Shown: in pieces, positions 38,066-64,000 of the stretch
Position numbering within the stretch: position 1 is the first letter of the stretch
How the letters are laid out: every line of letters begins with the position of its first letter
DNA from: Escherichia phage WPEC3
Sequence record: PV611058
DNA length: 64,000 nt
Strand: one strand, 5' to 3'
The notes under the pieces: generated by a model
Told to the model about the DNA's origin: nothing
Seen by the model: only the letters and a program-made list of their open reading frames with translations
Databases searched by the model: none
Position numbers and translations under genes: made by a program

Positions 38066-38566
38066 TTAGGTCACAGCTTTGTATTTCTCCATTGCTTCGG
38101 TGATATTCAATACTGCTTGCGGTACGTCACTTTTGTTGTATGCAATGGTTAGTTTTTCCATGTTATTGAGAAGACTTAGAAACAATGGAAGTACTTCTGC
38201 ATTGTCACTGAAGTTACAATCATTGACAGTACTCAATTGAAATAACTCACCAGCATCAACATTGAGTGTGTTGTATTCTTTAACAATGTTTTCTTCAGTA
38301 TTGAAGATGTAGAATACAGTCCCCATGTGGTGTAAGTATACACCAGTATCATTCTGAATATGACATGGGGTGATTACAATTGCTGTGTTATCAATATTAT
38401 TTACTATTGTCAAACGCAGACTATGTAACCCAAAGATTACAGTACAATCCTTTGTACTGTGTTGGATCTGGTCACTAGTAAAGGAAGACCCACTATGATT
38501 TTTAGATCCATTTAGTATTTCTTTGATAATTTTAAATGAATACTTCATCGAATTAGTTAAAAGCAT
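38066..38566 (-). CDS. FQ-core family paralog
   Basis: Motif GELFQLSTV. Confidence 0.6.
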   Translation of the reverse strand: MLLTNSMKYSFKIIKEILNGSKNHSGSSFTSDQIQHSTKDCTVIFGLHSLRLTIVNNIDNTAIVITPCHIQNDTGVYLHHMGTVFYIFNTEENIVKEYNTLNVDAGELFQLSTVNDCNFSDNAEVLPLFLSLLNNMEKLTIAYNKSDVPQAVLNITEAMEKYKAVT

Positions 38567-38966
38567 GAACTTTACCTTTAAGTAAATTAATTAATGATCG
38601 CATAGATTCAGTACTGACAGTACCAAAATCAACACCTAAGCACTCGTATTGAAAGAACTCAATAGAATCAATTGAGTCCAAAGGAATCTCAACAACCTGA
38701 TTCCCTATACCAGACATAGTAACATTGCTTTTATTAATCGTCAAGAAGTTTTTTGAATAAGTATTAAATTTTAGTGAAATCGCATCGGGGTGCTTTGTAA
38801 CAATGCAGTACTGGGAGCCATACACATATAGTACTTTACTTTCACTAAGATCCGTTTTAAAAAAATGAATCCCATTGAAGTATTTCTCATTGGCTTCCAT
38901 CGCCGCGATTAGTTCATCTGTTGTTGTTAACCTTGTTTCGTTCTTCGTTAAACTGTTGAAAAGCAT
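38553..38966 (-). CDS. FQ-core family paralog (divergent)
   Basis: Motif IEFFQYECL; start may be an internal Met. Confidence 0.5.
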   Translation of the reverse strand: MLFNSLTKNETRLTTTDELIAAMEANEKYFNGIHFFKTDLSESKVLYVYGSQYCIVTKHPDAISLKFNTYSKNFLTINKSNVTMSGIGNQVVEIPLDSIDSIEFFQYECLGVDFGTVSTESMRSLINLLKGKVHAFN

Positions 38967-39387
38967 AGAATACTACCTTAACCATTTGTAGTGTTTCAGA
39001 CATTACTTCTGATGAAAATTCAACATCATTGAATTTCAGCATAGTGTTCTGTGTAAAGAAAGTTGCTTCTAAGTCTTCCAGATTGAAGGGTTCATCAAAC
39101 AAATTAGTACTGAACATGTCAGTCTTCTTCTTGTATGTGAACAAGAATTTGGAATTATAACGAAGAACTATTTCATCTTTATTAACCAAAATACGTGCAA
39201 TGTTCTGACGTGTCAATGTGGTAATGTTTAAATTGAACACGTTCTTGCGTGTTTCAGTGATATCAACAAAATACCCATCTCCCTGATGGATATTACATCG
39301 TACATCCAACCCTTTCTGTACTGTATTGAACAGTGCATCTTGAATAAAATAATTTGCTGTATCGATGTTTCCTAAAATGTCTAACAT
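38914..39387 (-). CDS. FQ-core family paralog (divergent)
   Basis: Motif EATFFTQNTML. Confidence 0.5.
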   Translation of the reverse strand: MLDILGNIDTANYFIQDALFNTVQKGLDVRCNIHQGDGYFVDITETRKNVFNLNITTLTRQNIARILVNKDEIVLRYNSKFLFTYKKKTDMFSTNLFDEPFNLEDLEATFFTQNTMLKFNDVEFSSEVMSETLQMVKVVFYAFQQFNEERNKVNNNR

Positions 39388-39899
39388 AACTTCTCCTTGA
39401 TTGCTGTCATATTTAGAAGAAATTCTTCAAGCAATTCCTCTGTAACATACTCAACATACCAGAATATCACAATATCTTTTGAAAGTCGAGTATTCTTAAA
39501 AATATCTACTAACTCTTTGTAGTACTCAAGATCATATACATCTTTTATAATTAGTGAGTACTGAAATAGTGATTCTTCAGTTAACTTAAATTCTGGATAT
39601 AGTAAGTCATTAAATTCTAATGATTCTGATTGTACTTTTATTTTAGTGAAGTCATTTGTTAATCCACCATTACATCCATATAATGCAGCGTAATTCACGA
39701 ACTTGGCTTTTGGATTAAAATCAAGAACAGTTTCACCATTATATGACAATCGGTGGAACGCCGTGAACTTTGTAATTTGCCACGGTTGCTTAATATCTAA
39801 GTCATTTATGTCTTTATTATTGTACATAAGAACAGTGAATATTTCAGCAATCTTCAATAATAATTTAGTACGTGCTAGTACTGTCATAGGTTCAATCAT
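39381..39899 (-). CDS. FQ-core family paralog
   Basis: Motif EESLFQYSLI. Confidence 0.6.
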   Translation of the reverse strand: MIEPMTVLARTKLLLKIAEIFTVLMYNNKDINDLDIKQPWQITKFTAFHRLSYNGETVLDFNPKAKFVNYAALYGCNGGLTNDFTKIKVQSESLEFNDLLYPEFKLTEESLFQYSLIIKDVYDLEYYKELVDIFKNTRLSKDIVIFWYVEYVTEELLEEFLLNMTAIKEKLC

Positions 39900-40312
39900 T
39901 ATACACCTTCATATTCATCAAGGAAATCTTCGATGATCATTTCTGCGTCATCCATGTGCATAGCATCAACTTCAACAATGCGAACCTTAGACGTATCCCA
40001 AATCATATAGCTAGGAACTGTATCTGGTTCGTAATCGTTTTTGTACTGAACTGCATCATAGCCGTTAATTTCGCAGTACTCAATCACTCCACGCCATTCG
40101 TCGTCACTGCCCATATCCGTCCACAGAAGCACGTTATCAACATCAACTTCTAAGGTATGTAAGTATACTGTATCAGCGTCAACAACGTTCAGTGGGCTTC
40201 TCAACTTGCGTAATGCAGCTTCTAAAGCACTGTGTTTACCTCCCATATGAAGGCCACCATACGGGATATAAAAGTTATCAATTTTTACAGTACTCGCATG
40301 ATACAGTTTCAT
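39899..40312 (-). CDS. hypothetical acidic protein (no FQ core)
   Basis: 137-aa ORF interposed in the array. Confidence 0.5.
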   Translation of the reverse strand: MKLYHASTVKIDNFYIPYGGLHMGGKHSALEAALRKLRSPLNVVDADTVYLHTLEVDVDNVLLWTDMGSDDEWRGVIEYCEINGYDAVQYKNDYEPDTVPSYMIWDTSKVRIVEVDAMHMDDAEMIIEDFLDEYEGV

Positions 40313-40321
40313 TATTCATTC

Positions 40322-62500: not shown

Positions 62501-62812
62501 TCACTGTACGTCGATGTCATAATACGCTCCTACCTCATAATCTTTCTTGCTTTGGAATTCATTAACGACTTTCTGTATATTTCTTAATGTTACCATGTCA
62601 TGTCCGTACATGTCAACCACCAATTGCATTTGGAAAAATTCTTCTTCAGATAATGTATTAAAATCTATAAAATAATCCGTAACAACATGTTCGTCTAAAT
62701 TTGCCATGTACCATTGATTGGTATCGACCTCTTTAACCAAATTCCATGCATCTGAATCGGATTCTAATTCTACATATATTAATGTTAATGTATAAAGAAT
62801 TTTATACTTCAT
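62501..62812 (-). CDS. FQ-core family paralog (close pair with 62163-62480)
   Basis: Motif LSEEEFFQMQLV. Confidence 0.65.
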   Translation of the reverse strand: MKYKILYTLTLIYVELESDSDAWNLVKEVDTNQWYMANLDEHVVTDYFIDFNTLSEEEFFQMQLVVDMYGHDMVTLRNIQKVVNEFQSKKDYEVGAYYDIDVQ

Positions 62813-63308
62813 AACTATATCCTTGCATTAATAAATCATAAACGTTTGAAAGGTGCGGAATTTTGATATAAAATTTAAAACCCTTAATTAAAGGATTCGC
62901 GTACAATGAACTGAATAACTTTAGATAATGTATTTGACGAGGACTGTATAATAACGATTTCTGAAATAATTCAGCACTACAATCTGAACTAATATCAATT
63001 AAATCAATTCGTGCTTCTACTTCATCATCTTGTTTCAAAACATAAAAGAAATAATCGTTTGTGTTGACCCACAAATACCCTTCACTATTTTCGTATATAA
63101 CAGGAGATGCTTGTTCTGGATTGCCTTGGGCAAATGCTGCAAAACAAACTTTTGCATTACTTTCATCTTTAAACATAAACGATAATTTATCATATCTATC
63201 TTCTATGCGTAAATCACCTATAAAAATGTACTTATGCATAGAATGATTATTCTTGAGCATAAGCATTACTGTACTAATCTTGTGTGCTAATAATTCTATC
63301 TCATTCAT
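62802..63308 (-). CDS. FQ-core family paralog (close pair with 63385-63945)
   Basis: Motif AELFQKSLLYSP; C-terminus LLMQGYSYEV identical to sister gene. Confidence 0.65.
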   Translation of the reverse strand: MNEIELLAHKISTVMLMLKNNHSMHKYIFIGDLRIEDRYDKLSFMFKDESNAKVCFAAFAQGNPEQASPVIYENSEGYLWVNTNDYFFYVLKQDDEVEARIDLIDISSDCSAELFQKSLLYSPRQIHYLKLFSSLYANPLIKGFKFYIKIPHLSNVYDLLMQGYSYEV

Positions 63309-63314
63309 ATATTA

Positions 63315-63395
63315 TTACCTATTGATGGATACATCGTCATTGTCTTCTAATTCAACATAAATCATATCTTTTGTATAAAGCATTTTATACTTCAT
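63315..63395 (-). pseudogene. truncated remnant of a 62501-type paralog (26 codons)
   Basis: Encodes MKYKMLYTKDMIYVELEDNDDVSINR then stop; flanking ~40 nt repeat the junction seen at 62795-62835. Confidence 0.5.
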
Positions 63396-63945
63396 AACTA
63401 TATCCTTGCATTAAAAGATCATAAGCAATATCAACTAATTCTAAACGAATGAAAAATTTTAAATTATCTTTCAATGGATTCAAATGCATTGTACTAAACA
63501 ACATAAGATACTTCATTTGATTTGTATTGTATATTAGGGATGTCTGAAATACTTCTGCTTCATTGTAAGGATCAATGAATTTTATACCTTCTTCACTATA
63601 ATCCGTTTTGGAATTCTGATATATAAAATAATCATCACCATAATTGTACCACAAATAACCTTCAAAACTGGAATCAAATTCTGAATTTTCATTTCGCATT
63701 AAAGGTGATACTGAAATTGGATTTGAACCAACTGTTGCACAAACCTCAATGAAAGCATCTTCATTTCCCTTAACTTCTTCTTTGATTTTATCATTGTACT
63801 GTCCTGCAAAACCAGCTTTTACTTCCAAATATAAACTACTCCCAACTTTATTAATTCTTAAAAGGGAACTCTGTACTGTATTCGCATTGTTCAGCACTAA
63901 CGATATTGTGCAAATCTTATGTACCAATAACTCAATATCATTCAT
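63385..63945 (-). CDS. FQ-core family paralog (close pair with 62802-63308)
   Basis: Motif NEAEVFQTSLIYN; C-terminus LLMQGYSYEV. Confidence 0.65.
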   Translation of the reverse strand: MNDIELLVHKICTISLVLNNANTVQSSLLRINKVGSSLYLEVKAGFAGQYNDKIKEEVKGNEDAFIEVCATVGSNPISVSPLMRNENSEFDSSFEGYLWYNYGDDYFIYQNSKTDYSEEGIKFIDPYNEAEVFQTSLIYNTNQMKYLMLFSTMHLNPLKDNLKFFIRLELVDIAYDLLMQGYSYEV

Positions 63946-64000
63946 ATTGGTATTCCTTAATTTGGTGGATTTGGATGTAATAACTGATCTATATAATTTA

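What the first reader, a model, noticed from the sequence alone, without database searches (positions are those of the whole stretch)
38066..64000. Giant tandem array of about 45-50 divergent paralogs sharing an E-E-x-aromatic-F-Q-x-S core
Across roughly 26 kb, nearly every minus-strand gene (100-210 aa) carries the same short core two-thirds of the way along the protein: [DE][DE]-x-[FYLM]-F-Q-x-[ST]-[TL]-[IVL], for example EEYYFQNSTL, EEMYFQGSCI, EELFQMSTV, EENYFQQSLL. It is usually followed about 25-35 residues later by an aromatic F-Y-L-D-L/Y element, and many members begin with an MS-x-x-SAL-x-x-AK-type helix. The regions between these anchors are extremely variable. Genes are co-directional and mostly joined by ATGA or few-nt overlaps, with occasional internal promoters and terminators dividing the array into blocks. 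The array runs off the window end. I do not recognise this family from T4 or other described phages, and an expansion of this size in a phage genome is unusual; it resembles the diversified multigene families seen for immunity, anti-defence or host-takeover effectors.
Basis: seen in the sequence. Interest (0 to 1): 0.92.

Follow-up and report, generated by a model that had tools for sequence, protein, structure and literature searches.

The report
Fifty-gene unknown family in jumbo phage
A 26-kb stretch of this giant E. coli phage holds about 50 very divergent copies of one small protein of unknown function and apparently new fold, a family found only in this phage clade and not recognised before as a single family.

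Summary
The window comes from a RaK2/121Q-like jumbo coliphage (98% identical to phage WPEC5). Between 38066 and 63945, on the minus strand, 43 genes match a family profile. Six more carry a decayed motif at the same position, and one dispersed copy lies at 26295-26984. All share [ST]-E-E-x-(Y/L/F)-F-Q-x-S-(T/L)-(I/V/L) 47-85 residues before the C-terminus. A profile trained only on Klebsiella phage RaK2 finds 36 of 53 array ORFs, none of 93 other ORFs and none of 265 shuffles. The conservation is at protein level.

Two confident AlphaFold models show a beta-meander, an N-capped motif helix, a long helix and a terminal strand. They have no convincing match among solved structures. Pfam, NCBIfam, PADLOC and PDB sequence searches find no credible match, and PHROGs splits the genes into about 40 unknown families. 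A search of 1.84 billion proteins finds 96 clusters, all of this architecture.

Copy number rises from about 7 (GAP32) to about 28 (RaK2) to 45-50 (121Q group). The genes are under purifying selection, evolve faster than their neighbours, and sit behind sigma-70-type promoters. RaK2 virion proteins map to other gene clusters.

The most likely reading is a battery of early, soluble host-binding proteins built on one scaffold. That function is inferred, not shown.

The parts
38066..38566 (-). family member, 166 aa, AGELFQLSTV; positional ortholog of the RaK2 gene at L003 33411-33908
38553..38966 (-). probable member with decayed motif (IEFFQYECLG), 137 aa; RaK2 ortholog has IDFFQYTCGD
38914..39387 (-). 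probable member with decayed motif (EATFFTQNTM), 157 aa; RaK2 ortholog has ESTFFTQRCL
39381..39899 (-). family member, 172 aa, EESLFQYSLI
39899..40312 (-). NOT a member: conserved single-copy 137-aa enzyme-like gene embedded in the array in every clade member examined
40322..40906 (-). family member, 194 aa, EERLFQESCV
40896..41534 (-). family member, 212 aa, EAALMQLSTS
41495..42046 (-). family member, 183 aa, EEQHFQLSTI
42058..42639 (-). family member, 193 aa, EEQYFQLSTI
42626..43132 (-). family member, 168 aa, EENEFQNNTL
43129..43557 (-). probable member with decayed motif (DSLALQYGVL), 142 aa
43557..44135 (-). family member, 192 aa, DEELFQMSTV
44122..44706 (-). family member, 194 aa, EAYIFQRSVL
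44706..45269 (-). probable member with decayed motif (EYDVLLFNANLI), 187 aa
45357..45941 (-). family member, 194 aa, DEVQFQLSTI
45868..46425 (-). family member, 185 aa, ESVMFQHMLI; full-length ortholog in RaK2 and in metagenomic contig L002
46422..46964 (-). probable member with decayed motif (DMERIKFSLSNN), 180 aa
46948..47442 (-). family member, 164 aa, EESYFQNSLI
47430..47843 (-). family member, short type, 137 aa, PDELFQYSLV
47827..48189 (-). family member, short type, 120 aa, EEELFQESTV
48182..48664 (-). family member, 160 aa, EEMYFQGSCI
48661..49140 (-). family member, 159 aa, EEEFFQYSTL
49200..49790 (-). family member, 196 aa, EENYFQQSLL
49741..50079 (-). family member, short type, 112 aa, TGELFQESLV
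50069..50428 (-). family member, short type, 119 aa, EDELFQESLV
50434..51036 (-). probable member with decayed motif (DEDAMFTNDITM), 200 aa
51027..51623 (-). family member, 198 aa, EENIFQNSLM
51571..51967 (-). two small non-member ORFs (63 and 75 aa); the first belongs to the second tandem family (phrog_4148) that lies beyond the window end
51936..52469 (-). family member, 177 aa, EEQCFQLSCT
52466..52912 (-). family member, 148 aa, EEGYFQGSTV
52909..53352 (-). family member, 147 aa, EDAYFQYSTI
53352..53666 (-). family member, short type, 104 aa, ESFIFQESLV
53663..54106 (-). family member, 147 aa, EEYYFQNSTL; long-type structure model (pLDDT 88, pTM 0.85)
54081..54572 (-). family member, 163 aa, EEYYFQNSTV
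54575..55015 (-). family member, 146 aa, EEYYFQQSLI
55012..55482 (-). family member, 156 aa, EEFYFQQNTI
55484..55669 (-). small non-member ORF, 61 aa
55666..56082 (-). family member, short type, 138 aa, EAEIFQESLI
56012..56377 (-). family member, short type, 121 aa, DVELFQASLV
56374..56733 (-). family member, short type, 119 aa, AAELFQESLV; short-type structure model (pLDDT 86, pTM 0.82)
56730..57155 (-). family member, short type, 141 aa by longest ORF (112 aa as annotated in WPEC5), DAALFQEALV
57318..57732 (-). two small non-member ORFs (74 and 67 aa), flanked by gaps of 162 and 163 nt
57896..58522 (-). family member, 208 aa, EEMLFQYKTV
58461..58805 (-). family member, short type, 114 aa, EAARFQHETA
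58802..59440 (-). family member, 212 aa by longest ORF (172 aa as annotated in WPEC5), EAAYFQQSLI
59530..60138 (-). family member, 202 aa, ESFFFQLSLV
60135..60710 (-). family member, 191 aa, AEEYFQYSTL
60785..61282 (-). family member, 165 aa, EEWWFQQNLV
61261..61602 (-). non-member, 113 aa (phrog_36216, unknown function)
61589..62182 (-). family member, 197 aa, EEEFFQGSML; not in the training set but found by both profiles
62163..62504 (-). family member, short type, 113 aa, EEEFFQMQCV; recent duplicate of the next gene (75% DNA identity over 344 nt)
62501..62812 (-). family member, short type, 103 aa, EEEFFQMQLV
62802..63308 (-). family member, 168 aa, SAELFQKSLL
63385..63945 (-). family member, 186 aa, EAEVFQTSLI; last long-type member before the window end
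26295..26984 (-). dispersed member outside the array, 229 aa, SEEEHFQLMMM; linked by BLAST to 41495 and 42058
49174..49203 (-). perfect sigma-70-type promoter (TTGACA-18-TATAAT with TG) in the 59-nt gap upstream of gene 48661-49140
60738..60797 (-). terminator-like hairpin (60797-60776) followed by a promoter (TTGACA-17-TACAAT) in the 74-nt gap
45297..45358 (-). terminator-like hairpin (45358-45339) followed by a promoter (TTTACA-17-TATAAT with TG) in the 87-nt gap
59364..59392 (-). promoter-like site (11 of 12) 43 nt upstream of the WPEC5-annotated start of gene 58802
57090..57118 (-). promoter-like site (11 of 12) 19 nt upstream of the WPEC5-annotated start of gene 56730

Best explanation
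This is a clade-specific superfamily of small (100-215 aa), soluble, mostly acidic proteins, encoded as a tandem co-directional array in the early region of RaK2/121Q-like jumbo phages. Each protein is built on one scaffold: a variable antiparallel beta-meander (5-7 strands, preceded in the long type by an amphipathic helix), then a conserved C-terminal module. That module is a short N-capped helix carrying [ST]EEx(Y/L/F)FQxS, a long helix and a terminal strand. I read the motif mainly as the packing and capping core that keeps the fold intact while the rest of the protein diverges. I read the array as a repertoire of about 50 distinct binding proteins made early in infection by host RNA polymerase. 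Each would bind or block a different host (or competing-phage) protein, for takeover or counter-defence. Shown here: one family, protein-level constraint, the predicted fold, the clade restriction, the copy-number gradient and the promoter placement. Inferred: early timing, binding function and targets.
For: One family: a RaK2-only profile finds 36 of 53 array ORFs, 0 of 93 other ORFs and 0 of 265 shuffles. Long and short types align profile-to-profile around the motif (E 6.7e-5). Protein-level selection: F, Q and E use both synonymous codons, and Ser uses both AGY and TCN boxes. All orthologous pairs with 121Q have dN/dS below 1 (median 0.23). Scaffold plus variable part: two confident models share the same core. 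dN is higher in the N-terminal part than in the C-terminal module in 29 of 38 genes (p=7e-4). Among recent duplicates, DNA similarity survives only in the C-terminal module. Motif as packing core: it starts exactly at a predicted helix N-terminus after S/T, with pLDDT about 95. The two variable positions (-3 and +1 relative to Q) lie one helical turn apart on one face, and the conserved positions lie on the other faces (inference from helix geometry). Early, non-structural: all eight best sigma-70-like sites in 44-64 kb are on the coding strand, 19-71 nt upstream of gene starts, and two follow terminator hairpins. GAP32's annotators marked sigma-70 promoters and terminators through the syntenic region. 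The CBB paper infers that its corresponding region of short genes is early (PMC5259590). RaK2 virion proteins map to two other clusters (PMC3622015). Diversification: protein divergence is twice that of neighbouring genes at similar dS (dN 0.15 vs 0.078, p=0.003). Copy number is about 7 in GAP32, 28 in RaK2 and 45-47 in 121Q and WPEC5.
Against: No target, interaction or phenotype is known. No fold or sequence relative with a known function exists to lean on. Expression timing is inferred from consensus promoter matches, and the total number of such matches is no higher than in shuffled sequence. Many paralogs are ancient and collinear between genera and are under purifying selection. That fits stable housekeeping-like roles as well as it fits a defence arms race. 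An invariant Gln in proteins only 15-25% identical could mark a shared active or docking site rather than a structural contact. I could not inspect model coordinates to decide.
Confidence: 0.42

Rival explanations
1. Adaptor library. The conserved C-terminal module docks onto one shared machine and the variable part selects different clients. The machine could be the phage's own ClpP-like or HslV-like proteases encoded about 25-30 kb away, the embedded 137-aa enzyme-like protein, or a host hub protein. The array would then be a set of about 50 specificity adaptors.
For: The architecture is a constant module plus a variable part. F and Q are invariant despite very low overall identity. Two ClpP-like genes and one HslV-like gene lie in the neighbouring part of the same transcription direction (121Q annotation). 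The 137-aa gene sits inside the array in this phage, 121Q, RaK2 and GAP32, and lies on the same metagenomic contig as L002.
Against: The variable motif positions fall on one helical face and the conserved ones on the rest, as expected for a buried face rather than a docking surface (inference). The 137-aa gene occurs without any family member in Vibrio phage helene. No co-variation or interaction was tested.
Confidence: 0.17
2. Immunity-type repertoire. The proteins neutralise a range of toxins, such as host abortive-infection or toxin-antitoxin effectors, or effectors of competing phages. They would do so in the manner of tandem arrays of polymorphic-toxin immunity proteins. This is a special case of the best explanation with a narrower class of target.
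For: The proteins are small, acidic, alpha+beta and cytoplasmic, and form a diversified tandem array. The genes are clade-specific and copy number differs between host genera.
Confidence: 0.12
3. Processing site. The motif is the cleavage site of a Gln-specific (3C/TEV-like) protease, which releases the C-terminal 50-60 residues of each protein.
For: The motif resembles ENLYFQ|S (TEV) and LEVLFQ|GP (HRV 3C). EEMYFQGS and EEGYFQGS fit the TEV consensus ExxYxQ(G/S) (the consensus is from general knowledge).
Against: The motif is modelled as a packed helix at pLDDT about 95, not an exposed linker. The residue after Q is the most variable one (E, Y, L, Q, N, M and others), and Y at P3 occurs in only 12 of 42 members. 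No such protease is known in phages, and none is annotated in the parts of 121Q that I read.
Confidence: 0.03
4. Virion components, such as injected internal proteins or the 'hair' fibres seen on 121Q and CBB particles, diversified like the paralogous inner-body proteins of phiKZ-like phages.
For: Large paralog families of head-internal proteins exist in other jumbo phages (general knowledge). 121Q-type virions carry unusual hair-like decorations (PMC7824862).
Against: All RaK2 virion proteins found by MS or predicted map to an 82-kb cluster and a 20-kb cluster (ORF038-139 and ORF527-533), not to ORF412-440 (PMC3622015). The array's promoters are sigma-70-type rather than the late type. No gp44x protein is mentioned in the main text of the phAPEC6 virion study.
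Confidence: 0.04

Closest known systems
Lineage-specific expansion of a zinc-ribbon protein in Bacillus phage G (about 35 copies; Iyer et al. 2021, PMC7824862)
   Same: A large expansion of one small protein within a single jumbo-phage lineage, with function unknown and only guessed at.
   Different: That family uses a known fold (zinc ribbon), which suggests nucleic-acid binding. This family has no recognisable fold or domain, has more copies (about 50), lies in one contiguous array and is shared across several genera.
Multigene families of large eukaryotic DNA viruses, such as ASFV MGF360/505 and poxvirus ankyrin or Bcl-2-like families (general knowledge)
   Same: Tandem, co-directional, highly diverged paralogs near a genome end. 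They are early-expressed, copy number varies between strains, and they act as host-range or immune-evasion binders built on one scaffold.
   Different: There is no sequence or fold relationship, and the host is a bacterium. The host-interaction role is demonstrated for those families and only inferred here.
Paralogous inner-body and head-internal protein families of phiKZ-like jumbo phages (general knowledge)
   Same: Many diverged paralogs of unknown biochemistry in a jumbo phage.
   Different: Those proteins are virion components processed by the prohead protease. Here the RaK2 virion proteome maps elsewhere, and the promoters are of the early type.
TEV NIa and HRV 3C protease recognition sites (ENLYFQ|S/G, LEVLFQ|GP)
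   Same: Local sequence: acidic residues, then an aromatic or Leu, then F-Q. Two members are formally TEV-cleavable.
   Different: Here the motif is a structured helix inside a domain, P1' is variable and no cognate protease is known. The resemblance is most likely coincidental.
PHROGs families phrog_9317, phrog_12674, phrog_13866, phrog_15629 and about 36 others
   Same: These are the same proteins, already clustered from public phage genomes.
   Different: PHROGs treats them as about 40 unrelated families of unknown function. The motif, profile and models unite them into one superfamily.

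Membership tests
Any curated protein family (Pfam-A, NCBIfam, PADLOC, PDB sequences) | Significant profile match above the curated cut-off | tested here: not met
   50 genes were scanned. Pfam gave 2 single chance-level hits (E 0.003-0.005). 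NCBIfam gave 0. PADLOC gave 2 single hits at E 0.005-0.009. PDB profile searches with A2 and A4 gave nothing below E 0.1.
Lineage-specific tandem multigene family of a large virus (the kind it is filed under) | Many paralogs, adjacent and co-directional | tested here: met
   43 members plus 6 decayed ones lie in 26 kb on one strand, and 44 of 56 junctions overlap.
Lineage-specific tandem multigene family of a large virus (the kind it is filed under) | Restricted to one virus clade, with copy number differing between relatives | tested here: met
   96 clusters in 1.84 billion proteins. IMG/VR holds only 121Q, RaK2 and one UViG. Copy number is about 7 in GAP32, 28 in RaK2, 45 in 121Q and 47 in WPEC5.
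Lineage-specific tandem multigene family of a large virus (the kind it is filed under) | Members are functional genes, not decaying copies | tested here: met
   dN/dS is 0.07-0.61 for all 38 ortholog pairs with 121Q.
TEV/3C-type protease substrate site | E-x-x-Y-x-Q followed by G or S at P1' | tested here: not met
   P3 is Y in 12 of 42 members. P1' is E, Y, L, Q, N, M and others, and rarely G. The conserved Ser is at P2'.
TEV/3C-type protease substrate site | Site lies in an exposed, extended segment | tested here: not met
   The motif is modelled as a helix (residues 100-106 and 66-75) at pLDDT about 95.
TEV/3C-type protease substrate site | A cognate Gln-specific protease is encoded or available | not tested
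   Only about 115 kb of 121Q annotation was read. It lists ClpP-like and HslV-like proteases only.
Virion or injected internal proteins | Detected in purified virions | not testable with these tools
   From the literature only: RaK2 virion proteins map to other clusters (PMC3622015).
DNA-mimic anti-restriction proteins (Ocr/ArdA type) | Strongly acidic protein with a DNA-like charge array and a related fold | tested here: inconclusive
   Median pI is 4.84 and net charge -8.5, against 5.48 and -5 for neighbouring genes. One member is basic (pI 9.2). No fold match was found.
Polymorphic-toxin immunity families (SUKH/Imm type) | Fold or profile similarity, and an adjacent toxin gene | tested here: not met

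The most novel reading that the evidence does not exclude
The conserved C-terminal module is a docking domain for a shared phage or host machine, for example the phage-encoded ClpP-like or HslV-like proteases. The array would then be a phage-encoded library of about 50 substrate adaptors that sends chosen host proteins to one effector. That would be a programmable, targeted protein-removal system on a previously unseen fold.
Probability: 0.1. Interest if true: 0.9.

Novelty: new member of a known kind. Interest (0 to 1): 0.6.

Why it matters
About 7% of a 350-380-kb phage genome is spent on one protein family that nobody has named. RaK2/121Q-type phages are being developed against E. coli and Klebsiella, and most of their genes are listed as unknown. 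Uniting about 40 separate 'unknown' clusters into one superfamily turns 50 orphan genes into a single tractable question. The superfamily has a defined scaffold, a diagnostic motif and a clear evolutionary gradient (about 7, then 28, then 50 copies). If the members are host-protein binders, they are a ready-made panel of small inhibitors of enterobacterial proteins and a likely contributor to host range. The fold itself appears new. One practical point: at least two members (EEMYFQGS, EEGYFQGS) contain sites that TEV protease could cut if they are accessible, which matters for anyone expressing them with TEV-removable tags.

Tried and rejected
1. Searching AFDB with Foldseek: the library was not available.
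A2 worked but found only 3 loci.
3. A small ORF in Vibrio phage helene carrying 'TEEDFQYSVD' looked like a minimal family member by eye. It scores only 3-7 bits with three profiles, so I rejected it.
4. PDB profile hits of the 137-aa gene to RecA are artefacts of concatenated RecA fusion chains. Each stretch scores about 5 bits with an individual E of about 270.
5. The 137-aa gene as an obligate partner of the family: weakened, because it occurs alone in Vibrio phages.
7. A DNA-level repeat or recombination signal as the cause of the motif: rejected on codon evidence. DNA similarity exists only between a few recent duplicates.
8. Literature: the papers on RaK2, CBB, phAPEC6, Sharanji and fEgEco12 and the jumbo-phage survey do not describe the family. 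RaK2's authors say only that about 10% of its gene products are paralogues. One search was badly framed and returned nothing useful.
9. The two roughly 285-aa genes below the array (34497-35357 and 36534-37382, with LMFQLM and YTFQFEL) were considered as distant relatives. Neither is detected by any profile.

Full report
**Where the window comes from.** Positions 52000-58000 match Escherichia phage WPEC5 at 98% and fEgEco12 at 98%. They match the type phage 121Q at 83.5%, and every gene under the matches is annotated 'hypothetical protein'. The window is therefore part of a 350-380-kb RaK2/121Q-like jumbo myovirus (genus Asteriusvirus or close to it). Nearly all genes in the window lie on the minus strand.

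- A loose form of the motif is present in 42 minus-strand ORFs of at least 100 aa between 38066 and 63945.
- The form [DE][DEA]xxFQ occurs in 34 minus-strand reading frames and in none on the plus strand.
- The strict pattern [DE][DEA]xxFQx[ST] occurs in 24 of the 57 array proteins, against 0.057 expected from 1000 residue shuffles, with a maximum of 2.
- The Gln lies 47-85 residues from the C-terminus whatever the protein length (103-212 aa), so the conserved unit is a C-terminal module.
- A profile built from window sequences would match them by construction, so I built one from Klebsiella phage RaK2 sequences only. It finds 36 of 53 array ORFs at E<=0.01, none of the 93 other ORFs in the window and none of 265 shuffled sequences.
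- With the window-derived profile, 43 array genes score E<1e-3. These include one gene that was not used in training (61589-62182).
- Six more genes have a decayed motif at the right distance from the C-terminus. For two of them (38553 and 38914), the RaK2 positional orthologs carry the same decayed versions.
- One dispersed member lies at 26295-26984 and is linked by BLAST to 41495 and 42058.

The 'FYLD' strand occurs in about 10-12 members and the literal 'MS..SAL..AK' start in about 7. Packing is as described: 44 of 56 junctions overlap, 13 of them by exactly 4 nt.

**Protein or DNA signal?** Protein. At the invariant positions both synonymous codons are used: TTT 23 and TTC 17 for Phe, CAG 25 and CAA 17 for Gln. 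The conserved Ser is encoded from both codon boxes (AGT/AGC 17, TCN 15). Third positions in the motif window are only 38% identical between copies. Self-comparison of the array DNA finds similarity only between a few recent duplicates. Those are 62163/62501 at 75% over 344 nt, and the 53.7-55.5 kb and 55.7-57.2 kb quartets at 70-83% over 100-145 nt, confined to the C-terminal module. Median pairwise protein identity is about 24%. BLAST alone connects only sub-clusters of 6, 6, 6, 3 and 2 genes. PHROGs likewise splits the genes into about 40 families, all of unknown function.

**What the proteins look like.** Two AlphaFold2 models were made from alignments of orthologs plus the closest paralogs.
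- The long type (53663-54106, 147 aa) has pLDDT 88 and pTM 0.85. It has helix 3-21, seven strands, short helices at 90-94 and 100-106, helix 112-126, strand 132-135 and helix 137-145.
- The short type (56374-56733, 119 aa) has pLDDT 86 and pTM 0.82. It has five strands, helix 66-75, helix 84-101 and strand 109-113.
- Both therefore share a beta-meander, a motif helix, a long helix and a terminal strand. The long type adds an N-terminal and a C-terminal helix.
- The motif EEYYFQN is the helix 100-106 itself and starts right after Ser99. [ST]-E-E is a typical helix N-cap and first turn (general knowledge).
- The two variable motif positions, -3 and +1 relative to Gln, are four residues apart and so share one helical face. 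The conserved positions occupy the other faces. This is the pattern expected of a helix with one solvent face and a buried remainder. It is an inference, because I could not inspect coordinates.
- Profile-profile comparison of the long and short alignments gives E 6.7e-5 (probability 64%) over 49 columns spanning the motif and the two preceding strands. That is moderate support.

**Is it a known family or fold?** No.
- Pfam, NCBIfam and PADLOC give nothing beyond isolated chance-level hits.
- PDB sequence profiles give nothing.
- The viral predicted-structure library returns only uncharacterised proteins of 121Q, SP27 and RaK2, and more weakly GAP32, Serratia BF and Yersinia fHe-Yen9-04.
- AFDB could not be searched.

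**Distribution and history.** A full HMMER search with the C-terminal profile against 1.84 billion representative proteins finds only 96 clusters at E<=1e-3. All are 49-219 aa with the module at the C-terminus, and nearly all carry a very clean [ST]EExxFQxS[TL][IVL] motif. The distant ones come from metagenome assemblies. Two such contigs carry arrays of their own: at least 20 members in 20 kb of a Logan contig and 22-24 in 20 kb of an IMG/VR contig.

Among cultured phages, sequence searches find the family in the Escherichia/Salmonella 121Q group and the Klebsiella RaK2/K64-1 group. RaK2 has at least 28 members in the syntenic position. They lie next to the same dam methyltransferase and cytidyltransferase genes, with recognisable positional orthologs of the proximal window genes. 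About half of the RaK2 members have their best match in the window rather than within RaK2, and the matches run in collinear order. Much of the expansion therefore predates the split of the two genera. Cronobacter phage GAP32 has a mini-array of about seven motif-bearing genes in the same place. Counts are 45 in the 121Q locus and 47 in WPEC5, where four extra short members lie within 3 kb beyond the window end.

**Selection.** For 38 members with a reciprocal-best ortholog in 121Q, dN/dS ranges from 0.07 to 0.61 (median 0.23). For 71 neighbouring genes below 38 kb the median is 0.14 (p=0.001). Median dN is 0.15 against 0.078 at similar dS (0.69 against 0.76). Within genes, dN is higher before the motif than in the C-terminal module in 29 of 38 cases (medians 0.170 and 0.112, p=7e-4). 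These are constrained, functional genes whose variable part evolves about twice as fast as typical genes of this phage. There is no gene-wide positive selection.

**Expression and location in the cell.** All eight sigma-70-type matches scoring at least 11 of 12 in 44-64 kb lie on the coding strand. Each sits 19-71 nt upstream of a gene start, and two (45.3 and 60.8 kb) directly follow terminator-like hairpins in the rare intergenic gaps. One (49203-49174) is a perfect extended -10 consensus. The overall number of weaker matches is not above that in shuffled sequence, so only the placement of the best sites carries weight. GAP32's annotators marked the same kinds of promoters and terminators through the syntenic region. 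The CBB authors inferred that their corresponding region of short genes is the early region (PMC5259590). RaK2's 54 MS-detected virion proteins, together with the predicted structural genes, map to an 82-kb and a 20-kb cluster elsewhere in the genome (PMC3622015). The proteins are acidic, with median pI 4.84 and net charge -8.5 against 5.48 and -5 for neighbours. I saw no obvious signal peptide or transmembrane segment on reading the sequences.

**Interpretation.** The data best fit a scaffold-plus-variable-surface family made early in infection. A conserved helical module holds the fold together, and a variable sheet and N-terminal region differ from paralog to paralog and from phage to phage. 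By analogy with the multigene families of large eukaryotic DNA viruses (general knowledge), the most economical function is a panel of binders or inhibitors of different host or competitor proteins. I give this 0.42, because every functional step is inferred.

The main rival (0.17) is that the conserved module docks onto one shared partner. Candidates are nearby. Two ClpP-like genes and one HslV-like protease gene lie in the same transcriptional direction. A well-conserved, enzyme-like 137-aa gene (39899-40312) is embedded in the array in every clade member examined. However, that gene also occurs without the family in 136-kb Vibrio phages, and the helical-face argument favours a buried motif.

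The resemblance to TEV and 3C cleavage sites is striking but probably coincidental (0.03). The residue after Gln is the most variable in the motif, and the motif is modelled as a packed helix. A virion role (0.04) is contradicted by the RaK2 proteome.

**Novelty and interest.** The sequences are public as hypothetical proteins, and the RaK2 paper remarked that about 10% of its gene products are paralogues. None of the papers I searched or read describes this family, its motif, its extent or its fold. As a kind of thing, a lineage-specific tandem multigene family in a large virus, it is known. As a family it is new, apparently on a new fold, and it is larger than the roughly 35-copy expansion in phage G that a survey of 224 jumbo phages called unprecedented (PMC7824862). 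I score interest at 0.6. The finding is real, large and unexplained, and it is directly testable, but so far there is no evidence of an unusual mechanism.

Noticed in passing
window 39899-40312 (-): A 137-aa gene (MKLYHASTVKIDNFYIPYGGLHMGG...) is embedded in the array but is not a family member. It is single-copy, 40-99% identical across the whole RaK2-like clade, and has 25 invariant columns including several His, Asp, Glu, Arg and Ser, which looks enzyme-like. It has no Pfam match and falls in phrog_11632 (unknown function). It also occurs, without the family, in 136-kb Vibrio phages (helene 12B3, eugene 12A10).
   Followed up: partly
locus L001 (WPEC5) 34340-41058, just beyond the window end; one copy at window 51571-51762: A second, unrelated tandem family: about 28 consecutive genes of 65-92 aa (phrog_4148, unknown function), all linked by BLAST. 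It follows the FQxS array directly and has one stray copy inside it. 121Q has the same run (genes 319-341).
   Followed up: partly
window 29591-30994 (-): Four adjacent paralogs of about 90-103 aa, linked by BLAST, form another small tandem family of unknown function.
   Followed up: no
window about 9500-14000 (-), by correspondence with 121Q genes 464, 473 and 475: The phage encodes two ClpP-like proteases and an HslV (ClpYQ)-like protease. Nearby are Sir2-like, PhoH-like, DNA ligase, RNA ligase, polynucleotide kinase and Ser/Thr phosphatase genes. All are on the same strand as the array.
   Followed up: no
window 6001-8000: GC content jumps to 49% against about 33% elsewhere. ARAGORN finds no tRNA anywhere in the window. 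Several ORFs in 6172-8376 match each other by BLAST, which suggests internal repeats or a foreign insert.
   Followed up: no
window 34497-35357 and 36534-37382 (-): Two roughly 285-aa genes just below the array carry FQ-containing strings (DELMFQLMLT, LYTFQFELGF) and have counterparts in RaK2 (ORF441, ORF445). No family profile detects them, so a distant relationship is unproven.
   Followed up: partly
window 53690-54290, 54640-54750, 55050-55190 and 55720-56930: Among the two recently duplicated quartets, DNA similarity (70-83%) survives only in the part encoding the C-terminal module. This could reflect stronger constraint there, or gene conversion or module exchange between copies.
   Followed up: no
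protein P0133: A fragment 87% identical to window gene 56374-56733 is deposited on a 563-nt contig labelled Actinomadura adrarensis. This is almost certainly phage or E. coli contamination of that assembly. Several 'Escherichia coli' records of about 350 kb are likewise phage genomes.
   Followed up: no
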